DNA of 38,250 bases from Planctomycetota bacterium (GCA_036153155.1 JAYZMM010000010.1:1-38250), one strand, 5' to 3'. Shown: positions 1-24,652, numbered from the stretch's first letter. The notes: a model not told the origin generated them from the sequence alone. Program-made: numbers and translations.

Positions 1-709
1 GGCCAGGAGTCAGCGGGAGATGGGACGCGGATTCGCGCCGCAAGGCATGTATTCTTTCTCGCCCGCCCAAGGACTTGCGACACTCGGTTGGCTGCTTGAG
101 GAAGATGCAACGCAAACCGCGGTCATGCCGGCAAATTGGCCTGAGTGGTGGCAATACCATCCGCGAGCTGCTAAATCGGCCCTGTTCGCAAATCTTGTGC
201 AACTCGAAATTGGCCGCCAACCGATTAATACGTCAGATGTCGATGATGTGCCCACGCTCAGTCGTGCAAAAGTTGCGGAAACCCCGATTGCTGAGCGACC
301 GCGTCTGATTGAAGAATTTATAAGTGAACAGTTATCTCGTGTGCTAAGGATTGACGTCGATGAACTGGATATTCACCAGTCGCTTGGAAATTTGGGGATT
401 GATTCGTTGATGGCGGTCGAACTTCGCAACCATGTGCAGGCAAGTCTAGGTATCGTGATACCTGTTGCCCAGCTACTTCAGGATCCAAGCATTGCGCAAC
501 TTGCACAGGGGATACTCGATCAGTTAGCGGGCACATCTGCTTCGTTGGGCGAAGTAACAATCAATACAGACTCTTCCAGTGCGAATGATGCGGAATCACA
601 GCAGGGATTGCTCGCAGAACAGGCGTTAGAAAAGTTAGACACAATGTCGGACGAGGAAGTTGAGGCTATGTTGAGCCAGATGCTCGATGGTGAAAAGGGA
701 AATGCATGA
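1..709 (+). CDS. Type I polyketide synthase, C-terminal fragment (end of KR domain, ACP, C-terminal docking helix); 5'-truncated by the window edge
   Basis: Frame is open from base 2 (ARSQREM...). KR-tail-like segment GMYSFSPAQGLATLGWLL...VMPANW, ACP motif LGIDSLMAVELRN, acidic tail LDTMSDEEVEAML. The stop overlaps the next start (ATGA, 706-709). Confidence 0.9.
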   Translation, partial: ARSQREMGRGFAPQGMYSFSPAQGLATLGWLLEEDATQTAVMPANWPEWWQYHPRAAKSALFANLVQLEIGRQPINTSDVDDVPTLSRAKVAETPIAERPRLIEEFISEQLSRVLRIDVDELDIHQSLGNLGIDSLMAVELRNHVQASLGIVIPVAQLLQDPSIAQLAQGILDQLAGTSASLGEVTINTDSSSANDAESQQGLLAEQALEKLDTMSDEEVEAMLSQMLDGEKGNA

Positions 710-3700
710 GTGACGTAATGAAATCAAGTGAAAAACAATCCGCAGAGCAAAAGCGTGCACTGCTCGAAAAACTACTCAAAGAAAAAGCAGAGCAACAAAC
801 TAAAACAGGCTCGCTTTCCTATGGTCAACGCGCGCTTTGGTTTATGTATCAGATTGATCGCCATAGCTCTGCATACAACATTATGTATGCGGCTCACGTA
901 CGGTCGGATGTAGATATTCCAGCACTTGAGAATGCGTTCCAGAAACTTGTTGTGCGGCATCCGGTTCTGCGCACAACCTATCAGGCGGTTAATGGACTTC
1001 CTGTGCAAAAGGTGCATCCACACGTTGATGCCAAAATTGTGAGGGAGGATGCCCGGGATCTCGATTGGGAAGCACTTAATCGCGAAATTGAAGCCGAGGC
1101 AGATCGACCCTTTGATCTTGAAAAAGGTCCCGTCTTTCGCCTGCGAATTTATGAGCGGCGTGGCGACGGCCATGTTTTCCTGTTCACATCAGCGCATATA
1201 GCCAGTGACTTCTGGTCGTTTGATTTGTTATTTGATGAATTAGAAGTTCTTTATCGCGGTGAGATACAGAACACGAAGGTCGAACTGCCGGCCTTGCCTT
1301 ATGACTATTGGGGCTTTGTGCAATGGCAAGAGGAAATGCTTCAATCCGATCAAGGTCAAAAGCTTTGGGATTACTGGCATAAACAACTCGACGGGGATTT
1401 GCCAAATCTAGATTTGCCGACAGACCGCCCACGTCCGTCAGTGCAGACCTATCGCGGTAAAAGTCATACTTTCCAGCTTCCAGATCGCTTGGCAAATAGC
1501 CTGATGGAATTGACGCGACAGGAAGGCGCCACTCCCTTTATGACATTGCTGGCCGCCTATCAGATTCTGCTTTATCGATATTCGGGAGCGCAGGATATTT
1601 TGGTGGGTTCTCCCACCGCCGGTCGGAATCGGGCCGAGTTTGAACAAATCTTTGGGTATTTCTTGAATCCGATCGTTTTGCGTGCAAGGCTCGACCCCGA
1701 GATGACTTTTCGGGAATTCTTGGGGCAAGTAAAGGCCACCGTACTGGATGGTTTAACTTTTCAGGACTTCCCGTTTCCCATGCTCGTGGAGCGTTTGCAA
1801 CCCCCTCGCGATGCAAGTCGATCGCCGCTGTTTCAGGCATCTTTCGCTTGGGACAAACCACGGAAATTATTTCAGTACGAGCGTGGAGAGGGTAGTTTTG
1901 TTCCCCCGGATGACGTCTCTACATTGGGCCTGTTACCCTTTGCGTTGGGGCAGCAGGGGGCCGCATTTGATCTCACACTCATGATGCTCAGCATGGGAGA
2001 TTCACTTTCCGCAGCATTGCAATACAACTCCGATCTTTTCGATGAAGCAACGATCTCGCGCATGGTCGCCCATTTTGAAACGCTTCTTGAAGGTATCGTT
2101 GCAGATCCAGAAGAGAAACTTGCTGCCCTGCCATTGCTGGATCGTGAGGAAGAAACGAGCTTGCTTCGGCAGTGGAATCAGACCGCACTAGATTATCCCG
2201 AAGATGAATGCTTACATCAGATTTTTGAGCAGCGCGCCGCCGAGACGCCTGATGCGATCGCAGTTCGGTACGGAGAGGACGCGATAACCTATCGAGATCT
2301 GAATGCACGTGCTAATCAACTGGCACACTACATCGTGCAGCAGGGTGTCTGTGCCGAGACCTATGTGGCGATCTATCTGGAGCCCTCTCCCGAGATGCTC
2401 GTGGCTATTTTAGCGATTCACAAGGCGGGTGCCGCTTATGTGCCCCTCGCTCCGGGAACACCTTCCGAGCGGATTGGCATGATGCTTGATGAGAGCGCTG
2501 CCCCCATGATTCTCACACAAAAGATGCTGCAGGGTTCACTTCCCGAGACTTCCGCGGTGCGAGTTTGTCTTGATCAGCAGTGGGATTCGATCGAAAAAGA
2601 ATCCAAGAAAAATCTTGATCTTGGTGTCGAATCATCACAGCTTGCATACGTGATTTTTACTTCGGGTTCCACTGGGAAACCGAAGGGTGTTCAAATTGAA
2701 CACCGTAACGTCGTGAACTTTTTGGAATCGATGCGTAGCGAGCCTGGAATGAGTCCGCGGGACACCTTGCTTGCGGTGACAACTCTCTCATTTGATATTT
2801 CGGTTCTAGAAATTTATCTGCCCCTCACGACGGGTGCCACCGTCGCATTGGTGAGCCGAGAGATAACAAGCGACGGAAAACAATTGGCAAAGGTACTATC
2901 CGAAAGTGGGATCACAGTGATGCAAGCGACGCCCGCAACGTGGCGGTTGCTTATTGAAGCGGGATGGCAAGGTGATAAGAAACTTAAAATTCTTTGTGGT
3001 GGTGAGGCTATGCCCCGCGATTTGGCCGAGCAGTTACTAGAGCGTTCGGGTAGTTTGTGGAACATGTATGGCCCGACCGAGACGACTATTTGGTCTGCCG
3101 TCTTCCCGGTCGTTTCGGGTGAAGGATCGGTGCCAGTGGGTCGTCCGATTTCGAACACTCAAATTTACATTTTAGATGAGAGAATGCATCCAGTCCCGGT
3201 AGGTGTTCCGGGGCATTTGCATATCGGCGGCGATGGACTTGCCAGAGGTTACTTGAAACGACCTGAGCTCACGGCAGAAAAATTTGTTGATGATCCTTTC
3301 TCTGAGGCAAAGTCAGGAAAGATTTATAAAACTGGTGACTTGGCAAAATTCCGTCCTGATGGAGTGATTGAGTTTCTGGGACGACTTGATTTTCAGGTGA
3401 AAGTTCAGGGACATCGTATTGAACTTGGCGAGATTGAATCCCAGTTAAATCGTCACCCGAGCATCCGGCAATCGGTCGTCATGGCACGCCAAACCGGAAG
3501 CAAAATTGACGATAAGCAATTAGTTGCCTACACGGTTACCGACGGCGATTCGCCCAATGTAAGTGATCTAAGAGACTTCCTGCGGACGACGCTTCCCGAC
3601 TATATGCTCCCTTCAATTTTTATGCCCCTTGATGTTTTCCCGCTGAATCCGGCGGGCAAGGTGGATCGTAAATCGCTTCCTGAACCGGAGGCAATCCGGC

Positions 3701-6075
3701 CAGATCTTCGTGCGGAATACGTCGCGCCGAGGAATCCCGAAGAAGAAAAGATGGCAGAAATCTGGTCGTCCTCATTGGGTTTGGATCAGGTCGGTATAAA
3801 CGATAATTTCTTTGAATTGGGTGGCGCTTCCATTCAGAGTCTTGAAATTTCAGATCGCGCGATTGAAGAAGGGATGGATTTGACACCGGCAATGATCTTC
3901 CAATACCCCACGATTGCGGAGTTGGTTGAAGCTGCCGAGAAAATCGATCCACACGCCACGTCGGACATGGTTAGCAATGGTCATGCTGATTCGCCCGAGG
4001 TGAAAGCACCGCTGATACGGTCAGAAGCACAAAAGCAGACGCCAAAATCTGCTGATCATGCCAACACCATGATTGAAAGCCTTGGCGTTTATTTGCCGCC
4101 TGACGAGGTAACCACGAAGGATCTCATAAACGATTGCAAGAAGAAAATGTGGTTTCCGCTGGAATACATGACCGGAATCAAATCCCGTCGCATGGCCGGA
4201 AAAGATGAATTTAGTATCGATCTTGCAACGAAGGCGGTTAAAGAATGTTTGTCTTACTCAAAGTATGAGCCCGGTCATATTGATCTTATTGTATGTTGCA
4301 ATATCACTCGGAGCGATGCACACCTGCAGGTTACAATTGAACCTAACACTTCATTGCAATTGAAAAAGCGGTGTGGTTTCAGCAACGCTATTGCGTTTGA
4401 TGTTACGAATGCGTGCGCAGGAATGTTCACTGGCATGCAGATTGTGGACTCTTTTATCTCAGCCGGCATCATTCGTCGAGGCATGGTTGTCAGTGGCGAA
4501 TACATCACCGGAATCACCCGAACGGCGCAGCTTGAAATAACCGAGTTTCTGGACCCTCGTCTCGCATGTCTGACTGTCGGAGACGCTGGAGCTGCGATCA
4601 TTATGGAATCATCAGGGGGCACGGACGTTGGTTTTCATGAACTCGACATGTATACCCTCGGTAAATTTGCCTGGATGTGCATCGGCCGTTTGACGGAACA
4701 GCCTCACGGTGGCGCGATTATGCATGTCCCGGATCCAATGGAACATACTTCGGTAGCGGTTCGATACTCGGTGACCCATGCGAAGCATACTTTGGACAAT
4801 AGTCGCTATCGCCCAGATCAGATTCAGCGTCTGATTATGCATCAGACATCTGAAAGGTCGCTTCTTGATGGTGCGAAGGCGATCAATAAAGCTTTCAAGA
4901 AAAAAGTAAGCACAAAAGAAAATACGATCAATAATCTGGCCCATCGTGGCAATACAGCTAGCACAAGTCATATGGTCGCACTGTGGGACAATACCCTGAA
5001 CGGTACGATCCAATCAGGCGAAAATGTGGTGTTCGGGATTACCGGATCGGGCCAAACCATCGGAACAGCAATCTATACCTTCGATGATCTCCCCGATCGT
5101 TTAAGGGCAGCGAAAACGGACGGAAAGGTCCCTGAAAAATTAAGTGATGAAATTGCCTTGGCCCCACTCAAACCGCGTACTGTGCCAAGGGTACGCATCG
5201 CATCAGTGGGAATTTTCCCTGAGCAGGAACCGCTGTCTGATGACTCAGTCGATACGGCGGTGCGGGCTGCGGAAATTTGTCTCGCAAAAACATCTTACGA
5301 CCGCACCGATATCGAACTTTTGATCTTTGCCGGTATCACTCGAACTGCTTATGTATCGGAGCCCGCCTTAGCGGCAATGGTCACGGGCAAAATGAAAATG
5401 AATGATGTCATCGAGGATGAACTTGGTAAAAAGACCTTTGCATTTGACGTCTATAATGGTGCGATGGGTTTTCTGAACGCATGTCAAATTGCCACTGAAA
5501 TGATTCGTGCAGGCAAATATCGCACCGCCATGGTGGTAACGTCAGAGGTAGAACTAAATCGGGAGATGCACCCCGACAAACCATTGGGTCTTGTAGAAAC
5601 CGGATCAGCAGTGCTGCTTGATACAACGGCCGAGAATCGGACTGGATTCAGTAATTTCGCCTTTCACTACGATTGTGAGAAGATAGATTTGCGTCGAGCA
5701 ACAGGTGGCTATTTGGAAGGTAAGCCCTGCTTGGACCTCCGGATCGACGATCAACTGATCGATGCTTACCTCAAAATGATTCCCGCAGCGGTGGATAACG
5801 TGCTTGCGGAGGAAGGTCTCGATATTTCCGATATCGACTTTTTCCTTCCGCCCCAGATTTCCCCATCGATGAATAGCAAGCTGCCAAATTTGCTGGGTGT
5901 TGAGCCGCATCGTTTTGTTGATGTGTCGCGCGAAAACGCCGACTTATTCACTTCAGCGTTGCCTTATTCTTTGGAATATTTGCAGCGGGAGAAACGGACC
6001 CAACCTGGACAAATCGGCTTAGTCATTCATGCGGCATCGGGACTTCAGATAGGCTGTGCGGTTTACTATTTTTAA
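706..6075 (+). CDS. NRPS module C-A(Gly)-T fused to two tandem OleA/FabH-like (KS III) domains; no thioesterase
   Basis: C domain: LSYGQRALWF, RHPVLRT, AHIASDFWS. A domain: YVIFTSGSTGKPKG, NMYGPTETT, YKTGD, GKVDRK; specificity code read as DILQLGMIWK (glycine type). T domain: FFELGGAS (Ser at 3829). KS III-1 at about 4069-5080: FDVTNACAG, MHQTS, RGNTAS. KS III-2 at about 5188-6072: FDVYNGAMG, PPQ, ADL. Confidence 0.93.
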   Translation: MSDVMKSSEKQSAEQKRALLEKLLKEKAEQQTKTGSLSYGQRALWFMYQIDRHSSAYNIMYAAHVRSDVDIPALENAFQKLVVRHPVLRTTYQAVNGLPVQKVHPHVDAKIVREDARDLDWEALNREIEAEADRPFDLEKGPVFRLRIYERRGDGHVFLFTSAHIASDFWSFDLLFDELEVLYRGEIQNTKVELPALPYDYWGFVQWQEEMLQSDQGQKLWDYWHKQLDGDLPNLDLPTDRPRPSVQTYRGKSHTFQLPDRLANSLMELTRQEGATPFMTLLAAYQILLYRYSGAQDILVGSPTAGRNRAEFEQIFGYFLNPIVLRARLDPEMTFREFLGQVKATVLDGLTFQDFPFPMLVERLQPPRDASRSPLFQASFAWDKPRKLFQYERGEGSFVPPDDVSTLGLLPFALGQQGAAFDLTLMMLSMGDSLSAALQYNSDLFDEATISRMVAHFETLLEGIVADPEEKLAALPLLDREEETSLLRQWNQTALDYPEDECLHQIFEQRAAETPDAIAVRYGEDAITYRDLNARANQLAHYIVQQGVCAETYVAIYLEPSPEMLVAILAIHKAGAAYVPLAPGTPSERIGMMLDESAAPMILTQKMLQGSLPETSAVRVCLDQQWDSIEKESKKNLDLGVESSQLAYVIFTSGSTGKPKGVQIEHRNVVNFLESMRSEPGMSPRDTLLAVTTLSFDISVLEIYLPLTTGATVALVSREITSDGKQLAKVLSESGITVMQATPATWRLLIEAGWQGDKKLKILCGGEAMPRDLAEQLLERSGSLWNMYGPTETTIWSAVFPVVSGEGSVPVGRPISNTQIYILDERMHPVPVGVPGHLHIGGDGLARGYLKRPELTAEKFVDDPFSEAKSGKIYKTGDLAKFRPDGVIEFLGRLDFQVKVQGHRIELGEIESQLNRHPSIRQSVVMARQTGSKIDDKQLVAYTVTDGDSPNVSDLRDFLRTTLPDYMLPSIFMPLDVFPLNPAGKVDRKSLPEPEAIRPDLRAEYVAPRNPEEEKMAEIWSSSLGLDQVGINDNFFELGGASIQSLEISDRAIEEGMDLTPAMIFQYPTIAELVEAAEKIDPHATSDMVSNGHADSPEVKAPLIRSEAQKQTPKSADHANTMIESLGVYLPPDEVTTKDLINDCKKKMWFPLEYMTGIKSRRMAGKDEFSIDLATKAVKECLSYSKYEPGHIDLIVCCNITRSDAHLQVTIEPNTSLQLKKRCGFSNAIAFDVTNACAGMFTGMQIVDSFISAGIIRRGMVVSGEYITGITRTAQLEITEFLDPRLACLTVGDAGAAIIMESSGGTDVGFHELDMYTLGKFAWMCIGRLTEQPHGGAIMHVPDPMEHTSVAVRYSVTHAKHTLDNSRYRPDQIQRLIMHQTSERSLLDGAKAINKAFKKKVSTKENTINNLAHRGNTASTSHMVALWDNTLNGTIQSGENVVFGITGSGQTIGTAIYTFDDLPDRLRAAKTDGKVPEKLSDEIALAPLKPRTVPRVRIASVGIFPEQEPLSDDSVDTAVRAAEICLAKTSYDRTDIELLIFAGITRTAYVSEPALAAMVTGKMKMNDVIEDELGKKTFAFDVYNGAMGFLNACQIATEMIRAGKYRTAMVVTSEVELNREMHPDKPLGLVETGSAVLLDTTAENRTGFSNFAFHYDCEKIDLRRATGGYLEGKPCLDLRIDDQLIDAYLKMIPAAVDNVLAEEGLDISDIDFFLPPQISPSMNSKLPNLLGVEPHRFVDVSRENADLFTSALPYSLEYLQREKRTQPGQIGLVIHAASGLQIGCAVYYF

Positions 6076-6134: not shown

Positions 6135-6566
6135 GTGAAATATTCCATAGCACATGCTTTCATACGCTATCATCGGGGACTTGGAAAAATGCCTCGGCGA
6201 TGGAAGCCTTGGCTAACGTCGCTCTTGATGTCCAATATGATTGTGCCATTGTTTTTTCTGGCCAATCACCAAGAGGCTTGGGTGGTCCTCGGAACTGCAC
6301 TCTTAACCGGGGCCACCTTCATCGGGTTGACTGCTTACAGCGGGTTTTCACGGTTACTCGGATTTGGGCATCTGCCTTGGATTCCGATGCTGGTCTATCT
6401 CATTTTGAGATTGCCCCAGGCGCAACAGCAATTTCCTGACACCTGGTTTCTGTTCTGGCTTCAGGCGGTGATCGTTCTTGATATCGGATCTCTGATTCTC
6501 GATACGGCGAATGTGTTGCGTTACTTCGCAGGCGATCGCGATGAGATGGTCAAAGGGCTTTCCTGA
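6135..6566 (+). CDS. Hypothetical integral membrane protein (about 4 TM helices) inside the PKS/NRPS cluster
   Basis: 143-aa ORF with four hydrophobic segments, co-oriented between the NRPS and the PPTase. Start is GTG 6135 or ATG 6189. Confidence 0.8.
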   Translation: MKYSIAHAFIRYHRGLGKMPRRWKPWLTSLLMSNMIVPLFFLANHQEAWVVLGTALLTGATFIGLTAYSGFSRLLGFGHLPWIPMLVYLILRLPQAQQQFPDTWFLFWLQAVIVLDIGSLILDTANVLRYFAGDRDEMVKGLS

Positions 6567-6602: not shown

Positions 6603-7421
6603 ATGAAATTAGTTCCCGAAATCCCGCTTCATATGGTCGACATTTGGTATGCGTATGTCGATAAGCTCATCGCATGTGACTCGCTTGAAAATCATCTTCA
6701 GTTTCTAAGTAATGCTGAAAAAACGCAGCTTTCGCGATTTTCTTTAGCCCGCGTTCGGGAGGAATCGCTTGCTGCCCGACTTCTTTCCCGCCATGCACTT
6801 TCGTTTTACGGTGATGTTGCTCCATCGCGATGGCAGTTTGAAAAAGGGACGCGAGGTAAGCCTTACGTGGTAGCACCTTGGAAGGATTTTAGGGCATTCA
6901 ATTTAGCTCACTCTGCGAACCTGGTTGTGTTTGCAATTGCCCGGGAAGGACTTCTAGGGGTGGATGTCGAAAGTATGGATCGGTCGACCACTGGGATTCC
7001 TTTAGCTCGCCGATTTTTTGCGGTGCAGGAAGTAGATCAAATGCTTGCCATGCCATCTGAAATGCAAAGGGAATCGTTTTTGCAGTTTTGGACATTAAAA
7101 GAGGCCTATATCAAGGCAATCGGCGATGGGTTGGCGATGCCCTTGGATCAGTTCTTTTTTGATCTCACCGCTGCCGGACCCGCGCGACTACATGTTCGTA
7201 ATGTTGCTCAAGCCGGTTCTTCCTGGCTTTTTGCGCAGTTGCGATTGCCCTCGCGGCATCATATATCCCTGGGAATCACTCATTCGATGCTGATGGAAAA
7301 AGCGAACAAACAACAGATGCGCGTGCGGGTCCGCGAAATCAAATCAACACGTGCACCCATTCCAAGCGGAGATGTTTTGTGTACGGAAGAGAATGCATGG
7401 TATTTCCGCCCGGAATCTTAG
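6603..7421 (+). CDS. sfp: 4'-phosphopantetheinyl transferase, Sfp/HetI type
   Basis: Motifs RGKPYV, FNLAHS, GVDVE, FWTLKEAYIKAIGDGL; adjacent to carrier-protein-containing synthases. Confidence 0.93.
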   Translation: MKLVPEIPLHMVDIWYAYVDKLIACDSLENHLQFLSNAEKTQLSRFSLARVREESLAARLLSRHALSFYGDVAPSRWQFEKGTRGKPYVVAPWKDFRAFNLAHSANLVVFAIAREGLLGVDVESMDRSTTGIPLARRFFAVQEVDQMLAMPSEMQRESFLQFWTLKEAYIKAIGDGLAMPLDQFFFDLTAAGPARLHVRNVAQAGSSWLFAQLRLPSRHHISLGITHSMLMEKANKQQMRVRVREIKSTRAPIPSGDVLCTEENAWYFRPES

Positions 7422-23632: not shown

Positions 23633-24652
23633 CTACCAACTCAGTAATGCCGTACCCCATGCGAGTCCGCCGCCGAAGCCCGAGAGAATAATTCGGCTTC
23701 CCGGTTGAATTTTGCCTTCTCGAAAGGCTTCGTCGAGAGCCAACGGAATACTGCCGGCGGATGTGTTGCCGTAGCGGTCAACATTTACAATGACCTTTTC
23801 ACGATCAACATTCAGGTTTTCGGCTGCTGCATCGATAATCCGCGAGTTGGCTTGATGGAGGATAAAAAGATCAATGTCACTTACATCAAGTCCAGCTTCT
23901 CGCGTTACATCTCGGACTGTCGATTCGATAAGCCGAACGGCCCATTTGAATACCGGTCGACCTTCCATCCTCATAAACTGTTGACCCTGATTTGCCCCCG
24001 ATGCATTGACCGGATCGGCGGAACCACCCATTGGAATACAAAGCAAATCATGTCCGGATCCGTCAGCCCCGAGTGTATAGGCGAGAAGCCCCTGATCTGA
24101 ATTACCCGATTCGACGAGGACTGCACCTGCACCATCACCGAATAAAGGATATGTTTTTTTATCGTTTGGGTTGGCAACGCGGGAATTCGTATCGGCACCG
24201 ACCAATAGTGCAAGCTTGCTGGTGCCATTGGCTACGAATTGCATTCCGGTGATCATGCTGTAAATAAAGCCGGCGCACGCGGCCTGAATGTCGAACGCTG
24301 GAGCATTAATACCGAGCCGATCTTGAACCTGACAGGCCGTTGCAGGCATTGGTAAATCGGCGGTAAAGGTGCCCAATACCACCAAATCCACTTCCTCTGC
24401 TTGACGACCCGATTGCTCAAGGCAACGGGCTGCAGCAATTGTCGCCATGTCACTCGTCTTTATGTCGGCGCTCGCATGACGACGTTCTTGGATGCCGGTA
24501 CGTTGCACAATCCAGTCGGCATCGCAGCCAAGCGATGCTAAATCTTCATTAGCAACGATATGCTCAGGGACATAGCTGCCGGTTCCGATTACCCGGACAC
24601 CAGGTAAATGGAAAATGCGTGACTGACGGGTCTGTATCGATCTATCGGTCAT
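23633..24652 (-). CDS. fabH: 3-oxoacyl-ACP synthase III
   Basis: WIVQRTGIQERR, AACAGF (Cys), LFGDGAGA, HQAN (His), YGNTSAGSIP (Asn), GFGGGLAWG. Confidence 0.95.
   Translation of the reverse strand: MTDRSIQTRQSRIFHLPGVRVIGTGSYVPEHIVANEDLASLGCDADWIVQRTGIQERRHASADIKTSDMATIAAARCLEQSGRQAEEVDLVVLGTFTADLPMPATACQVQDRLGINAPAFDIQAACAGFIYSMITGMQFVANGTSKLALLVGADTNSRVANPNDKKTYPLFGDGAGAVLVESGNSDQGLLAYTLGADGSGHDLLCIPMGGSADPVNASGANQGQQFMRMEGRPVFKWAVRLIESTVRDVTREAGLDVSDIDLFILHQANSRIIDAAAENLNVDREKVIVNVDRYGNTSAGSIPLALDEAFREGKIQPGSRIILSGFGGGLAWGTALLSW

What the first reader, a model, noticed from the sequence alone, without database searches (positions are those of the whole stretch)
4069..6075. NRPS ending in a fused active/dead OleA-like KS III pseudo-dimer instead of a thioesterase
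Seen: after the T domain there is no TE or reductase, but two thiolase-fold copies in one reading frame. Copy 1 has Glu1212 (IEP, nt 4339), Cys1237 (NAC, 4414), His1379 (HQTS, 4840) and Asn1416 (GNT, 4951). Copy 2 has Ala for Cys (NGAMG, 5461), Pro for His (PPQ, 5851) and Asp for Asn (ADL, 5941), lacks the N-terminal TGIxxRR segment, but keeps the Glu (SEP, Glu1552, nt 5359). Known: in Xanthomonas OleA, Glu117 is donated by the partner subunit to the Cys143/His285 site for non-decarboxylative Claisen condensation; the Glu-Cys and Cys-His spacings here (25 and 142 aa) are close to OleA's (26 and 142). Stand-alone active/inactive KS III heterodimers exist (LstA/LstB, PqsB/PqsC). Inference: copy 2 is an in-cis structural partner that supplies the general-base Glu, so a monomeric NRPS can carry a normally dimeric enzyme as its release unit. 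I do not know of a characterised NRPS with this terminus.
Basis: partly seen in the sequence, partly recalled or inferred. Interest (0 to 1): 0.92.

Follow-up and report, generated by a model that had tools for sequence, protein, structure and literature searches.

The report
NRPS ending in fused KS III pair
A lipopeptide assembly line ends not in the usual release enzyme but in two fused fatty-acid-synthase-like domains, one active and one dead that keeps a single key glutamate, and this unstudied ending turns out to be widespread across bacterial phyla.

Summary

The fusion is not an assembly artefact. I retrieved 380 homologs; 155 sit at the C-terminus of larger NRPS/PKS proteins and 171 are free-standing didomains of about 670 aa. 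They come from Planctomycetota, Ktedonobacteria, Bacteroidota, Lentisphaeria and Mycobacterium.

In 335 full didomains, copy 1 keeps Cys/His/Asn. Copy 2 never has the Cys, yet its Glu1552-Pro1553 is invariant (335/335) and aligns on OleA Glu117.

The two halves are predicted to pack as a KS III-like pseudo-dimer. The closest known system is the LstAB heterodimer, where LstB Glu60 is essential. In four Bacteroidota genomes the didomain lies beside OleB/C/D-like genes, and no canonical OleA was found there.

Best reading, at about 0.55: a covalently fused LstAB/OleA-type unit that releases N-acyl-glycyl-S-T by a non-decarboxylative Claisen condensation.

Unproven or unexplained: the chemistry, the product, the Glu1552-Cys1237 distance, and the near-invariance of Glu1212. 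Nine literature searches found no paper on this ending.

The parts
2..709 (+). 3' end of the upstream PKS gene (end of KR region plus terminal ACP). The gene is cut by the contig start and continues on contig C83 of the same genome.
   Evidence: PP-binding 107-169 of the 235-aa fragment. There is an exact 118-nt overlap with the end of contig C83, which carries FAAL-ACP-KS-AT-cMT-KR. The stop at 709 overlaps the NRPS start at 706.
706..6075 (+). NRPS gene, 1789 aa: C-A-T-KSIII(active)-KSIII(dead)
811..2166 (+). Condensation domain (aa 36-487)
   Evidence: Pfam PF00668, E 1.8e-96
2224..3660 (+). Adenylation domain (aa 507-985). The ten specificity-pocket residues read DILQLGMIWK, which I recall as a glycine-type code.
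   Evidence: Pfam PF00501 and PF13193. Pocket residues read from the sequence. The assignment to Gly is recalled and was not tested.
3748..3933 (+). Thiolation (carrier) domain (aa 1015-1076)
   Evidence: Pfam PF00550, E 2.8e-10
4057..5085 (+). KS III copy 1 (aa about 1118-1460), active: Glu1212 (4339-4341), Cys1237 (4414-4416), His1379 (4840-4842), Asn1416 (4951-4953)
   Evidence: PDB FabH hits down to 5.5e-22. Cys 334/335 (1 gap), His 335/335, Asn 335/335. Secondary-structure elements run from residue 11 to 348 of the model.
5086..5187 (+). Linker between the two KS III copies (aa about 1461-1494), modelled with two short helices
   Evidence: AF2 secondary structure H352-362 and H371-374; block pLDDT 91-98
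5188..6072 (+). KS III copy 2 (aa about 1495-1789), without a triad: Glu1552 (5359-5361) kept, Ala1586 (5461-5463) for Cys, Pro1716 (5851-5853) for His, Asp1746 (5941-5943) for Asn
   Evidence: PDB hits FabH 3.3e-10 and PqsC 7.1e-9. The N half matches OleA best, and SEP aligns on OleA's Glu117-Pro. Glu and Pro are 335/335, with no Cys at the Cys position in 335.
6135..6566 (+). Small hydrophobic protein of 143 aa and no known family. It follows the NRPS gene in 12 related planctomycete loci.
   Evidence: No Pfam hit. Labelled mem143 in 12 of 80 loci. The Atlas nearest clusters are all 'hypothetical protein'.
6603..7421 (+). Sfp-type 4'-phosphopantetheinyl transferase
   Evidence: Pfam ACPS 5.6e-18 and AASDHPPT_N 7.4e-10. 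A PPTase is present in 24 of 80 related loci.

Best explanation
The last 680 residues of this NRPS are a covalently fused KS III heterodimer. It is the single-chain equivalent of the lipstatin LstA/LstB pair or of an OleA homodimer.

Copy 1 (aa about 1118-1460) is the catalytic subunit, with Cys1237, His1379 and Asn1416. Copy 2 (aa about 1495-1789) has lost the triad and the TGIxxRR entrance segment. It packs against copy 1 through the usual KS III dimer interface and reaches across with Glu1552, the counterpart of OleA Glu117 and, by analogy only (not aligned here), of LstB Glu60.

Inferred pathway: a fatty acid is loaded by the FAAL, extended once, C-methylated and ketoreduced by the upstream PKS. 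The C domain joins it to glycine on the T domain. The didomain then takes N-(3-hydroxy-2-methylacyl)glycyl-S-T and forms a C-C bond with a second acyl thioester by a non-decarboxylative Claisen condensation. In that step the acyl group on Cys1237 is deprotonated by Glu1552, and its enolate is stabilised by His1379 and Asn1416.

Hydrolysis of the beta-ketoacyl-S-Cys would free the chain, so no thioesterase is needed. The product would be a branched beta-keto acid or, after loss of CO2, an N-acyl alpha-amino ketone.

Shown here: the domain order, the residues, their conservation, the predicted packing and the gene neighbourhoods. Inferred: the reaction type, which partner sits on Cys1237, and the identity of the second substrate and of the product.
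For: Architecture and residues.

Conservation. In 335 full didomains at 32-98% identity to the window, copy 1 has Cys in 334 (1 gap), His in 335 and Asn in 335. Copy 2 has Glu1552 in 335 and Pro1553 in 335. Its Cys position reads A 169, S 87, G 55, P 6, E 6, T 5, N 3, H 1 among the eight commonest residues listed, never Cys. Its His position is Pro in 316 and its Asn position is Asp in 305. The earlier 121-sequence set agrees.

Alignment. HMMER puts copy 2's S-E-P on the L-E-P of X. campestris OleA (Glu117, 26 residues before Cys143), and OleA is the best PDB match for that segment (2.3e-4). Copy 1's I-E-P falls on the M/F/Y-P position of FabHs. In a joint alignment both copies and two planctomycete OleA-type proteins have E-P, where the window's own FabH has M-P.

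Packing. The AF2 single-chain model has pLDDT 94.1 and pTM 0.95. The complex test gave score 0.95 with the best of 3 controls at 0.01. That mark was reached by 58 of 80 solved complexes and 2 of 110 mismatched pairs. The three runs agree in at least 92% of contacts and the partner's pLDDT is at least 89. The interface includes residues 97-104 (with Glu1212), 438-448 (with Glu1552), the flanks of Cys1237 and the Gly-rich loop 337-341. Because KS III homodimers are solved, this pass may reflect likeness to them.

Precedent, from passages read. LstA has C128/H271/N305, and the LstB E60A mutant is soluble but inactive (PMC12141560). OleA E117 enters the partner's active site and deprotonates the Cys143-bound chain, which is the Claisen nucleophile (PMC8180931). 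PpyS E105A abolishes pyrone formation (PMC4578411). NltAB is active only when co-expressed (bioRxiv 10.1101/856955).

Position. The didomain is at the extreme C-terminus in 155 of the 156 proteins where it is fused behind larger NRPS/PKS parts.

Context. In 4 of 8 Bacteroidota genomes examined, an OleC-like gene lies on the same contig 3.4-15.1 kb from the didomain. In two of these, Ferruginibacter and Flavihumibacter, OleB-, OleC- and OleD-like genes were identified. In 5 of 5 Bacteroidota genomes no gene reaches the cut-off of NCBIfam NF006720, the model that the planctomycete OleA-type gene matches at 442 bits. In each of those genomes the best match to that model is copy 1 of the didomain, at 120.6-136.1 bits.

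No other release enzyme. No TE or reductase is present in the window cluster, nor upstream of the PKS in a 93%-identical relative.
Against: No biochemical data exist for any member that I could find.

Copy 1 is closer to FabH than to OleA. NCBIfam gives FabH models 139.9 and 113.9 bits and NF006720 109.2 bits, all below their cut-offs. PDB phmmer and Foldseek agree. It also keeps the full Cys-His-Asn triad that decarboxylating FabH uses.

Glu1212 of the active copy, which in a pseudo-dimer would point into the dead copy, is also nearly invariant (328 E and 7 D of 335). The Glu-Pro could therefore be kept for the interface rather than for catalysis.

The published OleA motif [LIVYF]-E-P-x-x-[VIL] is not met literally by either copy (I-E-P-N-T-S and S-E-P-A-L-A). 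However, the OleA chain itself reads L-E-P-S-T-A, so I put little weight on the flanks.

Ole-like partners are absent from the window's own cluster and were not found in K. racemifer or a Mycobacterium genome at E<=1e-60.

The KR is conserved across the family. The resulting 3-hydroxyl could instead serve as the nucleophile in an ester-forming release.

I could not measure the Glu1552-Cys1237 distance, because no coordinates are given out.
Confidence: 0.55

Rival explanations
1. FabH-type decarboxylative release. Copy 1 takes the N-acyl-glycyl chain onto Cys1237 and condenses it with malonyl-CoA or malonyl-ACP. This gives a 4-(acylamino)-3-oxobutanoyl thioester that hydrolyses or cyclises, for example to an N-acyl tetramic acid. 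Copy 2 is only a structural partner.
For: Copy 1's best matches are FabHs: 5.5e-22 in the PDB, NCBIfam FabH models 139.9 and 113.9 bits, and Foldseek TM-scores normalised to the target of 0.87-0.91. It keeps the complete Cys-His-Asn triad. That assembly lines commonly extend an amino acid by malonate and close a pyrrolinone or tetramate ring is recalled knowledge.
Against: A decarboxylating KS III needs no general base. Yet a Glu-Pro that FabHs lack (M/F/Y-P) is invariant in the otherwise decayed copy 2 (335/335). OleB/C/D-like neighbours without a canonical OleA in four Bacteroidota genomes fit an OleA-type product better.
Confidence: 0.15
2. Acyl-transfer or ester-forming release. Copy 1 acts as a KS III-type acyltransferase. 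It passes the N-acyl-aminoacyl group from Cys1237 to water or to a hydroxyl, possibly the conserved 3-hydroxyl of a second chain. This would give a free lipoamino acid or a cyclic di-ester of the serratamolide type. Glu1552 would activate the O-nucleophile.
For: Both a KS and a KR label are present in 48 of 80 related loci, and the amino acid is mostly Gly or Ser. Every member would therefore make an N-(3-hydroxyacyl) amino acid. That KS-fold enzymes with acylating activity are known is mentioned in PMC4578411.
Against: Asn1416 is invariant (335/335). I recall, without testing, that KS III-like acyltransferases tend to replace this Asn. The Ole-like neighbours in Bacteroidota argue for a beta-keto acid product. 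In Ktedonobacteria a separate type II thioesterase gene follows the NRPS, so simple hydrolysis is available without a 680-residue didomain.
Confidence: 0.12
3. Copy 2 is a purely structural chaperone-like partner, as I recall PqsB being described. The conserved Glu-Pro in both copies serves interface packing, not catalysis.
For: Both copies keep the Glu, and both Glu-containing segments lie in the predicted interface. Copy 2 also hits PqsC chains (7.1e-9).
Against: Glu1552 is more strictly kept (335 E) than Glu1212 (328 E, 7 D). The equivalent Glu is catalytically essential in LstB, OleA and PpyS. FabH dimers form the same interface with hydrophobic residues at this position.
Confidence: 0.15
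4. The fusion is an assembly or annotation artefact, or a decaying pseudogene.
For: The window comes from a fragmented genome (136 contigs, 2.09 Mb), and the upstream PKS gene is split between two contigs.
Against: There is one uninterrupted 1789-codon frame. The same architecture at 46-98% identity appears in the 120 best of 479 hits. It is fused after a T domain in 59 of 80 loci, including complete genomes of isolates. Residue conservation is strong.
Confidence: 0.01

Closest known systems
LstA/LstB (lipstatin) and NltA/NltB (nocardiolactone) KAS-III heterodimers
   Same: One subunit carries the Cys-His-Asn triad and the other lacks activity alone but is needed. LstB Glu60 is essential. The condensation is non-decarboxylative and head-to-head, giving an alpha-branched beta-keto acid (passages read in PMC12141560, and bioRxiv 10.1101/856955). 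Here copy 1 has the triad and copy 2 has only the invariant Glu.
   Different: In LstAB the two subunits are separate proteins acting on acyl-CoAs. Here they are one polypeptide, which is often itself fused behind C-A-T, so one substrate is carrier-bound. The active copy here also keeps its own Glu. I made no sequence comparison with LstA/B, because no sequences were in hand.
OleA (X. campestris; PDB 3row, 4ku3, 5vxd and others)
   Same: KS III fold. A Glu-Pro lies 25-26 residues before the catalytic Cys and enters the partner subunit's site. Copy 2's Glu1552 aligns on Glu117. Ole-like downstream genes accompany the didomain in some Bacteroidota.
   Different: OleA is a homodimer with two active sites. 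Neither copy reaches the cut-off of the OleA-type NCBIfam model (109.2 and 71.2 bits against 285). Foldseek ranks FabHs above OleA. OleA's substrates are free acyl-CoAs.
PpyS/PyrS pyrone synthases
   Same: They are FabH-derived KS enzymes with a Glu (E105) that acts in trans as base for a head-to-head condensation (PMC4578411).
   Different: They are homodimers and release the product by pyrone lactonisation of a beta-ketoacyl partner.
FabH (KAS III of fatty acid synthesis)
   Same: It is the best overall sequence and fold match to copy 1, with the same triad.
   Different: FabHs have a hydrophobic residue where both copies have Glu. They are homodimers and use malonyl-ACP. The window has its own canonical FabH at 23633-24652.
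PqsB/PqsC (quinolone synthesis)
   Same: It is an active/inactive KS III heterodimer (recalled). PqsC chains are among the best PDB matches to copy 2 (7.1e-9).
   Different: The proteins are separate. I recall that PqsC lacks the Asn; that point was not tested. No Glu-in-trans mechanism is known to me.

Membership tests
KS III / FabH-like thiolase-fold condensing enzymes | Pfam ACP_syn_III and ACP_syn_III_C domains above the gathering score | tested here: met
   PF08545 62.5 bits (cut-off 24) and PF08541 79.4 bits (cut-off 26.6), two stretches each
KS III / FabH-like thiolase-fold condensing enzymes | Cys-His-Asn catalytic triad | tested here: met
   Met for copy 1 (Cys1237, His1379, Asn1416; 334, 335 and 335 of 335). 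Not met for copy 2 (Ala, Pro, Asp).
KS III / FabH-like thiolase-fold condensing enzymes | Dimer through the conserved interface | tested here: met
   This is a prediction only. AF2 gives pTM 0.95. The complex score is 0.95 against 0.01 for the best control, and the interface covers the strands next to both Cys positions.
OleA (head-to-head, non-decarboxylative thiolase) | Glu (Glu117) before a Pro, supplied to the partner's active site | tested here: met
   Met at sequence level. Copy 2's SEP aligns on OleA's LEP, and copy 1's IEP is at the same column. Reach into the active site could not be measured.
OleA (head-to-head, non-decarboxylative thiolase) | Score above the cut-off of the OleA-type NCBIfam model NF006720. 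I take it as OleA-type because the planctomycete gene near oleC/oleD scores 442 bits. | tested here: not met
   Copy 1 scores 109.2 bits and copy 2 scores 71.2 bits; the cut-off is 285.
OleA (head-to-head, non-decarboxylative thiolase) | Published motif [LIVYF]-E-P-x-x-[VIL] (PMC8180931) | tested here: not met
   Copy 1 reads I-E-P-N-T-S and copy 2 reads S-E-P-A-L-A. The OleA chain reads L-E-P-S-T-A, so the last position of the printed motif may not be reliable.
OleA (head-to-head, non-decarboxylative thiolase) | oleB/C/D genes beside it | tested here: not met
   Not met in the window cluster or upstream of the PKS in a close relative. It is met for the free-standing didomain in 4 of 8 Bacteroidota genomes.
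OleA (head-to-head, non-decarboxylative thiolase) | Condenses two acyl thioesters to a 2-alkyl-3-keto acid without decarboxylation | not testable with these tools
   Needs an enzyme assay.
LstAB/NltAB-type KAS-III heterodimer | One triad-bearing subunit plus one triad-less subunit with an essential Glu | tested here: met
   The residue pattern and its conservation fit. That the Glu is essential is inferred from LstB E60A.
LstAB/NltAB-type KAS-III heterodimer | Two separate, co-dependent polypeptides | tested here: not met
   It is a single chain in 334 of 380 homologs retrieved. The other 46 are partial, either fragments or possibly split forms, and this was not resolved.
Canonical NRPS termination (TE, reductase, terminal C) | A thioesterase, NAD-binding reductase or terminal condensation domain after the last T | tested here: not met
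   None of the 7 Pfam families found in the ORF is one of these. There is no TE gene in the window cluster.

The most novel reading that the evidence does not exclude
The FAAL-PKS / C-A-T / KS-KS clusters could be a thiotemplated, PLP-independent route to ceramide-like lipids. The didomain would join an N-acyl-seryl or N-acyl-glycyl thioester head-to-head with a second fatty acyl thioester. Hydrolysis and loss of CO2 would give an N-acyl 2-amino-3-keto-alkane. With serine, that is the skeleton of 3-keto-dihydroceramide. Clade-specific partners would then finish it: OleD/HpnA-like reductases, OleC/OleB-like enzymes and P450s. This would make it a widespread unrecognised membrane-lipid or signal class in Planctomycetota, Ktedonobacteria, Bacteroidota, Lentisphaeria and Mycobacterium. 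The fused dead/active KS III pair would count as a new general chain-release domain.
Probability: 0.12. Interest if true: 0.92.

Novelty: new variant of a known kind. Interest (0 to 1): 0.8.

Why it matters
Chain release decides the final chemistry of every NRPS/PKS product. The known release catalysts are few: TE, reductase, terminal C, Dieckmann cyclases and some KS-like cyclases.

Here a KS III pseudo-heterodimer sits in that position. It is not a single oddity. The pattern scan found 495 related stretches in the species-genome collection. The exhaustive search found 328 cluster representatives at E<=1e-30. The family spans at least five phyla, most of them poorly explored for natural products.

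The family also offers a natural experiment on how an obligate dimeric enzyme becomes a single chain with one active site plus one donated residue. It points to an unknown family of lipo-amino-acid-derived metabolites. Cultured strains carrying the cluster (Ktedonobacter racemifer, Thermosporothrix hazakensis, Flavihumibacter stibioxidans, Ferruginibacter paludis) make the question directly testable.

Genome-mining tools that look for TE or R domains would call these assembly lines incomplete.

Tried and rejected
(1) A link between the window's NRPS and the oleC/oleD-like genes of the same genome (contig C69). I rejected it. In relatives these genes sit on another contig together with FabF, ACP, carotenoid-desaturase-like genes and their own OleA-type KS III (442 bits to NF006720), so they form a separate cluster.

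(2) Measuring the Glu1552-Cys1237 distance. This was not possible, because structure prediction and complex prediction return no coordinates and none are laid in /data. Only interface residue lists were available.

(3) Literature. Nine full-text searches found no paper describing a C-A-T-KSIII-KSIII protein or a fused KS III didomain. The library lacks most subscription journals, and supplements are closed, so prior description cannot be excluded. For papers I saw only the following: search listings, plus passages of bioRxiv 10.1101/856955, PMC4578411, PMC12141560, PMC7064751 and PMC8180931.

(4) A phylogeny of the two copies against PpyS, DarB, PqsB/C/D, CorB/MxnB, LstA/B and tetronate FabH-likes. 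Only the window's FabH and two planctomycete OleA-type proteins were compared. Whether the pair arose by internal duplication is open; the copies share 26% identity over 150 residues.

(5) The 143-aa protein downstream. No family was found.

(6) Read-level check of the fusion (look-up of sequencing runs, read laying). Not run, and judged unnecessary given.

(7) Glycine and serine assignments of the A-domain pockets are recalled Stachelhaus-type codes. They were not tested with a predictor.

Full report
OBSERVATION

The window is the first 38,250 bases of contig C10 of a fragmented genome (136 contigs, 2.09 Mb). ORF 706-6075 (+) encodes 1789 residues.

Pfam finds Condensation (36-487), AMP-binding (507-850, with its C-terminal part at 909-985) and PP-binding (1015-1076). 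After these come ACP_syn_III and ACP_syn_III_C, each in two stretches. No thioesterase or reductase family is found, and NCBIfam FabH models also match twice.

Copy 2 lacks the roughly 30-residue stretch that carries TGIxxRR in copy 1, in the window's FabH and in OleA-type proteins.

By overall similarity copy 1 is a generic KS III that sits nearer FabH than OleA:
- PDB phmmer gives 5.5e-22 for FabH and 2.1e-8 for OleA.
- Foldseek TM-scores normalised to the target are 0.87-0.91 for FabH and 0.80-0.83 for OleA.
- NCBIfam gives 139.9 bits for a FabH model and 109.2 bits for NF006720, both below their cut-offs.

Copy 2 matches FabH (3.3e-10) and PqsC (7.1e-9).

SURROUNDINGS

The 5'-open ORF at 2-709 is the ACP end of a PKS. 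Its first 118 nt are identical to the end of contig C83. That contig carries the rest of the gene: FAAL-type AMP-binding, ACP, KS, AT, C-methyltransferase and KR. The PKS stop overlaps the NRPS start by four bases.

Downstream lie a 143-aa hydrophobic protein without a family and an Sfp-type PPTase. Unrelated genes follow. They include a 3-keto-disaccharide hydrolase-domain protein, peptidase M3, a radical SAM protein and a canonical FabH at 23633-24652.

In a relative whose didomain is 93% identical, the genes upstream of the PKS are a sulfatase, MscL and an EF-hand protein. The planctomycete cluster is therefore minimal: PKS, NRPS-KS-KS, the small protein and the PPTase. The didomain is the only candidate release catalyst.

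The A-domain pocket reads DILQLGMIWK.

DISTRIBUTION

Searching with residues 1100-1789 gave these results:
- Among proteins of similar length, 479 hits among 8000 scored candidates. The best 120 are 46-98% identical and nearly all are C-A-T-KS-KS.
- Among shorter proteins, 1022 hits. The top ones are free-standing proteins of about 670 aa that cover the whole didomain.
- In the exhaustive search of 1.84 billion cluster representatives, 4116 hits at E<=1e-3, 1121 at E<=1e-10 and 328 at E<=1e-30.

I classified the 380 homologs in hand:
- 156 carry the didomain behind larger NRPS/PKS parts, 155 of them at the very C-terminus.
- 7 are T-didomain proteins.
- 171 are free-standing.
- 46 are partial.

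In the species-genome collection, 517 stretches matched the scan patterns and 495 of them encode a relative. The 80 loci kept come from Planctomycetota, Ktedonobacteria and other Chloroflexota, Bacteroidota, Lentisphaeria, Opitutaceae, and Mycobacterium and other Actinomycetota. They include cultured strains and complete chromosomes.

In those 80 loci the didomain is fused after a T domain in 59 and stands alone in 20. A few of the 20 are cut by contig ends. One 2-kb contig could not be labelled.

The gene in front is almost always a FAAL/KS-AT-KR type PKS. The amino acid varies by clade. Pockets are Gly-type in Planctomycetota, DVWHxSLIDK (recalled as Ser) in Ktedonobacteria, and DPWHxSLIDK in most Mycobacterium loci. 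Among 150 A domains, 64 are Gly-type, 64 are DVWH-type and 22 are other.

CONSERVATION

I aligned 335 full didomains that are 32-98% identical to the window.
- Copy 1: Cys1237 in 334 (1 gap), His1379 in 335, Asn1416 in 335, and Glu1212 as E in 328 and D in 7.
- Copy 2: Glu1552 in 335 and Pro1553 in 335.
- Copy 2's Cys position is never Cys. The listed counts are A 169, S 87, G 55, P 6, E 6, T 5, N 3 and H 1.
- Copy 2's His position is Pro in 316, and its Asn position is Asp in 305.

So copy 2 lost its nucleophile throughout the family but keeps one Glu-Pro absolutely.

EQUIVALENCE OF THE GLU

For the N half of copy 2, the best PDB match is X. campestris OleA (2.3e-4). S-E-P is aligned on OleA's L-E-P, 26 residues before the Cys143 position, which in turn aligns with Ala1586.

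Copy 1's I-E-P aligns on the M/F/Y-P of FabHs. In a joint alignment both copies and two planctomycete OleA-type proteins (442 bits to NF006720) have E-P, where the window's FabH has M-P.

From passages read:
- OleA E117 enters the opposite subunit's Cys143/His285/Asn315 site and deprotonates the Cys-bound chain, which is the Claisen nucleophile (PMC8180931).
- PpyS E105A is inactive (PMC4578411).
- In the LstAB heterodimer, LstA holds the triad, and LstB E60A is soluble but dead (PMC12141560).
- NltAB works only when co-expressed (bioRxiv 10.1101/856955).

STRUCTURE

AF2 on an 85-row alignment gives mean pLDDT 94.1 and pTM 0.95 for the 679-residue didomain, with the linker also confident.

Folded as two chains, the halves scored 0.95, against 0.01 for the best of 3 controls. 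That mark was reached by 58 of 80 solved complexes and 2 of 110 mismatched pairs. The runs agree in at least 92% of contacts, and the partner's pLDDT is at least 89.

The interface holds 97-104 (with Glu1212), 438-448 (with Glu1552), the residues on both sides of Cys1237 and of Ala1586, and the Gly-rich loop 337-341.

KS III homodimers are solved, so this pass may be memory of them. It shows likeness of the interface, not binding. Coordinates are not released, so the Glu-to-Cys distance remains unmeasured.

CONTEXT THAT BEARS ON FUNCTION

Accessory genes differ by clade:
- Ktedonobacteria have a type II thioesterase.
- Mycobacterium has an HpnA/3-beta-HSD-like reductase, a BBE-type oxidase, an amidase and an acyl-CoA dehydrogenase.
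- Bacteroidota have a luciferase-like monooxygenase, a P450 and a PPTase.

In Ferruginibacter paludis, three genes stand directly before the free-standing didomain:
- an OleB-like hydrolase;
- an OleC-like ligase (629.8 bits to the olefin beta-lactone synthetase model, below its cut-off of 850);
- an OleD-like reductase (416.3 bits, cut-off 580).

In Flavihumibacter stibioxidans the same set lies just past the C-A-T gene.

I examined eight Bacteroidota genomes for an OleC-like gene:
- In four it lies on the didomain's contig, 3.4-15.1 kb away.
- In one it is 3.2 Mb away.
- In one its contig relation was not resolved.
- In two none was found at E<=1e-60.

In five of five Bacteroidota genomes nothing reaches the NF006720 cut-off. 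The best match in each is copy 1 of the didomain, at 120.6-136.1 bits. There the didomain is the only visible candidate for the OleA role.

MECHANISM

Most likely (about 0.55) the didomain is a fused LstAB/OleA-type condensing unit. An acyl group on Cys1237 is deprotonated by Glu1552 from copy 2, with the enolate held by His1379 and Asn1416. It then attacks a second thioester.

Whether the T-bound N-acyl-glycyl chain is the Cys-bound nucleophile or the incoming electrophile is open. In either case the chain leaves the carrier without a TE. After hydrolysis and loss of CO2, both routes give an N-acyl alpha-amino ketone skeleton.

The rivals are FabH-type malonyl extension (0.15), acyl transfer or ester-forming release using the conserved 3-hydroxyl (0.12), and a purely structural copy 2 (0.15).

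Points against my reading:
- Copy 1 is globally nearer FabH than OleA.
- Glu1212 is also conserved.
- The window's own cluster has no Ole-like partners.
- There are no experimental data.

The idea that fusion lets a monomeric NRPS carry a dimeric enzyme is weakened by the 171 free-standing didomains. The single-chain pseudo-dimer exists in its own right and acts in trans in Bacteroidota.

NOVELTY

Active/inactive KS III heterodimers and the trans-acting Glu are known. Two things appear undescribed: their covalent fusion, and its use as the terminal unit of PKS-NRPS lines across several phyla. This rests on nine searches of a library that lacks most subscription journals. I rate it a new variant of a known kind, of high interest.

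Noticed in passing
window 1-709 and locus L001 (G000 contig C83): The window starts inside a PKS gene. Contig C83 ends with the same 118 nt, so the assembly broke inside the gene. Read together, the gene is FAAL-ACP-KS-AT-cMT-KR-ACP, about 2.7 thousand residues.
   Followed up: yes
window 6135-6566: A 143-aa hydrophobic protein without any family follows the NRPS gene here and in 12 of 80 related loci, all planctomycete. Its role in the cluster is unknown.
   Followed up: partly
L082 (G000 contig C69) 771-4700; L090 (G001:C166): The same genome has an oleC-like and an oleD-like gene followed by a FabF-like KS and an ACP. In relatives the operon also holds two carotenoid-desaturase-like genes, and an OleA-type KS III lies about 6 kb away. 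This is an unusual ole-like cluster, separate from the NRPS.
   Followed up: partly
L036 4118-14206; L093 3470-9275; L043, L053, L055: Bacteroidota clusters combine FAAL, a luciferase-like monooxygenase, a PKS, C-A-T, the free-standing didomain, a P450, a PPTase, OleB/C/D-like genes, a DUF6629 protein and a conserved protein of about 490 aa with no Pfam family.
   Followed up: partly
L047, L054, L060, L063, L069, L075, L081 and other Mycobacterium/Actinomycetota loci: Environmental Mycobacterium genomes carry FAAL-ACP-KS-AT-KR plus C-A-T-KS-KS. Beside these lie an HpnA/3-beta-HSD-like reductase, a BBE-type FAD oxidase, an amidase, an acyl-CoA dehydrogenase and a second PKS.
   Followed up: partly
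A domains of the family (P0003-P0383; loci L002-L081): The amino acid pocket changes with the clade: Gly-type in Planctomycetota and Opitutaceae, DVWHxSLIDK in Ktedonobacteria and DPWHxSLIDK in Mycobacterium. Rarer codes also occur, so the didomain accepts different N-acyl amino acids.
   Followed up: partly
window aa 1263-1295 of the ORF (nt about 4492-4590): In the MAFFT alignment copy 1 has extra residues between the SGE strand and the GDAG motif, at the same place where OleA-type proteins have an insertion relative to FabH. This rests on one small alignment only.
   Followed up: no
copy 2, aa 1614, 1618, 1717, 1746 (nt 5545, 5557, 5854, 5941): Several residues of the 'dead' copy are themselves strongly conserved: Glu1614 in 328 of 335, Asn1618 in 301, Gln1717 in 288 and Asp1746 in 305. 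Together with the conserved Glu1212 that should point into it, this hints that its pocket has a use of its own.
   Followed up: no
P0364, P0375, P0378 and other partial hits: Some database proteins cover only copy 1 or only copy 2. They may be contig-end fragments or true split (two-gene) forms of the pair. This was not resolved.
   Followed up: no
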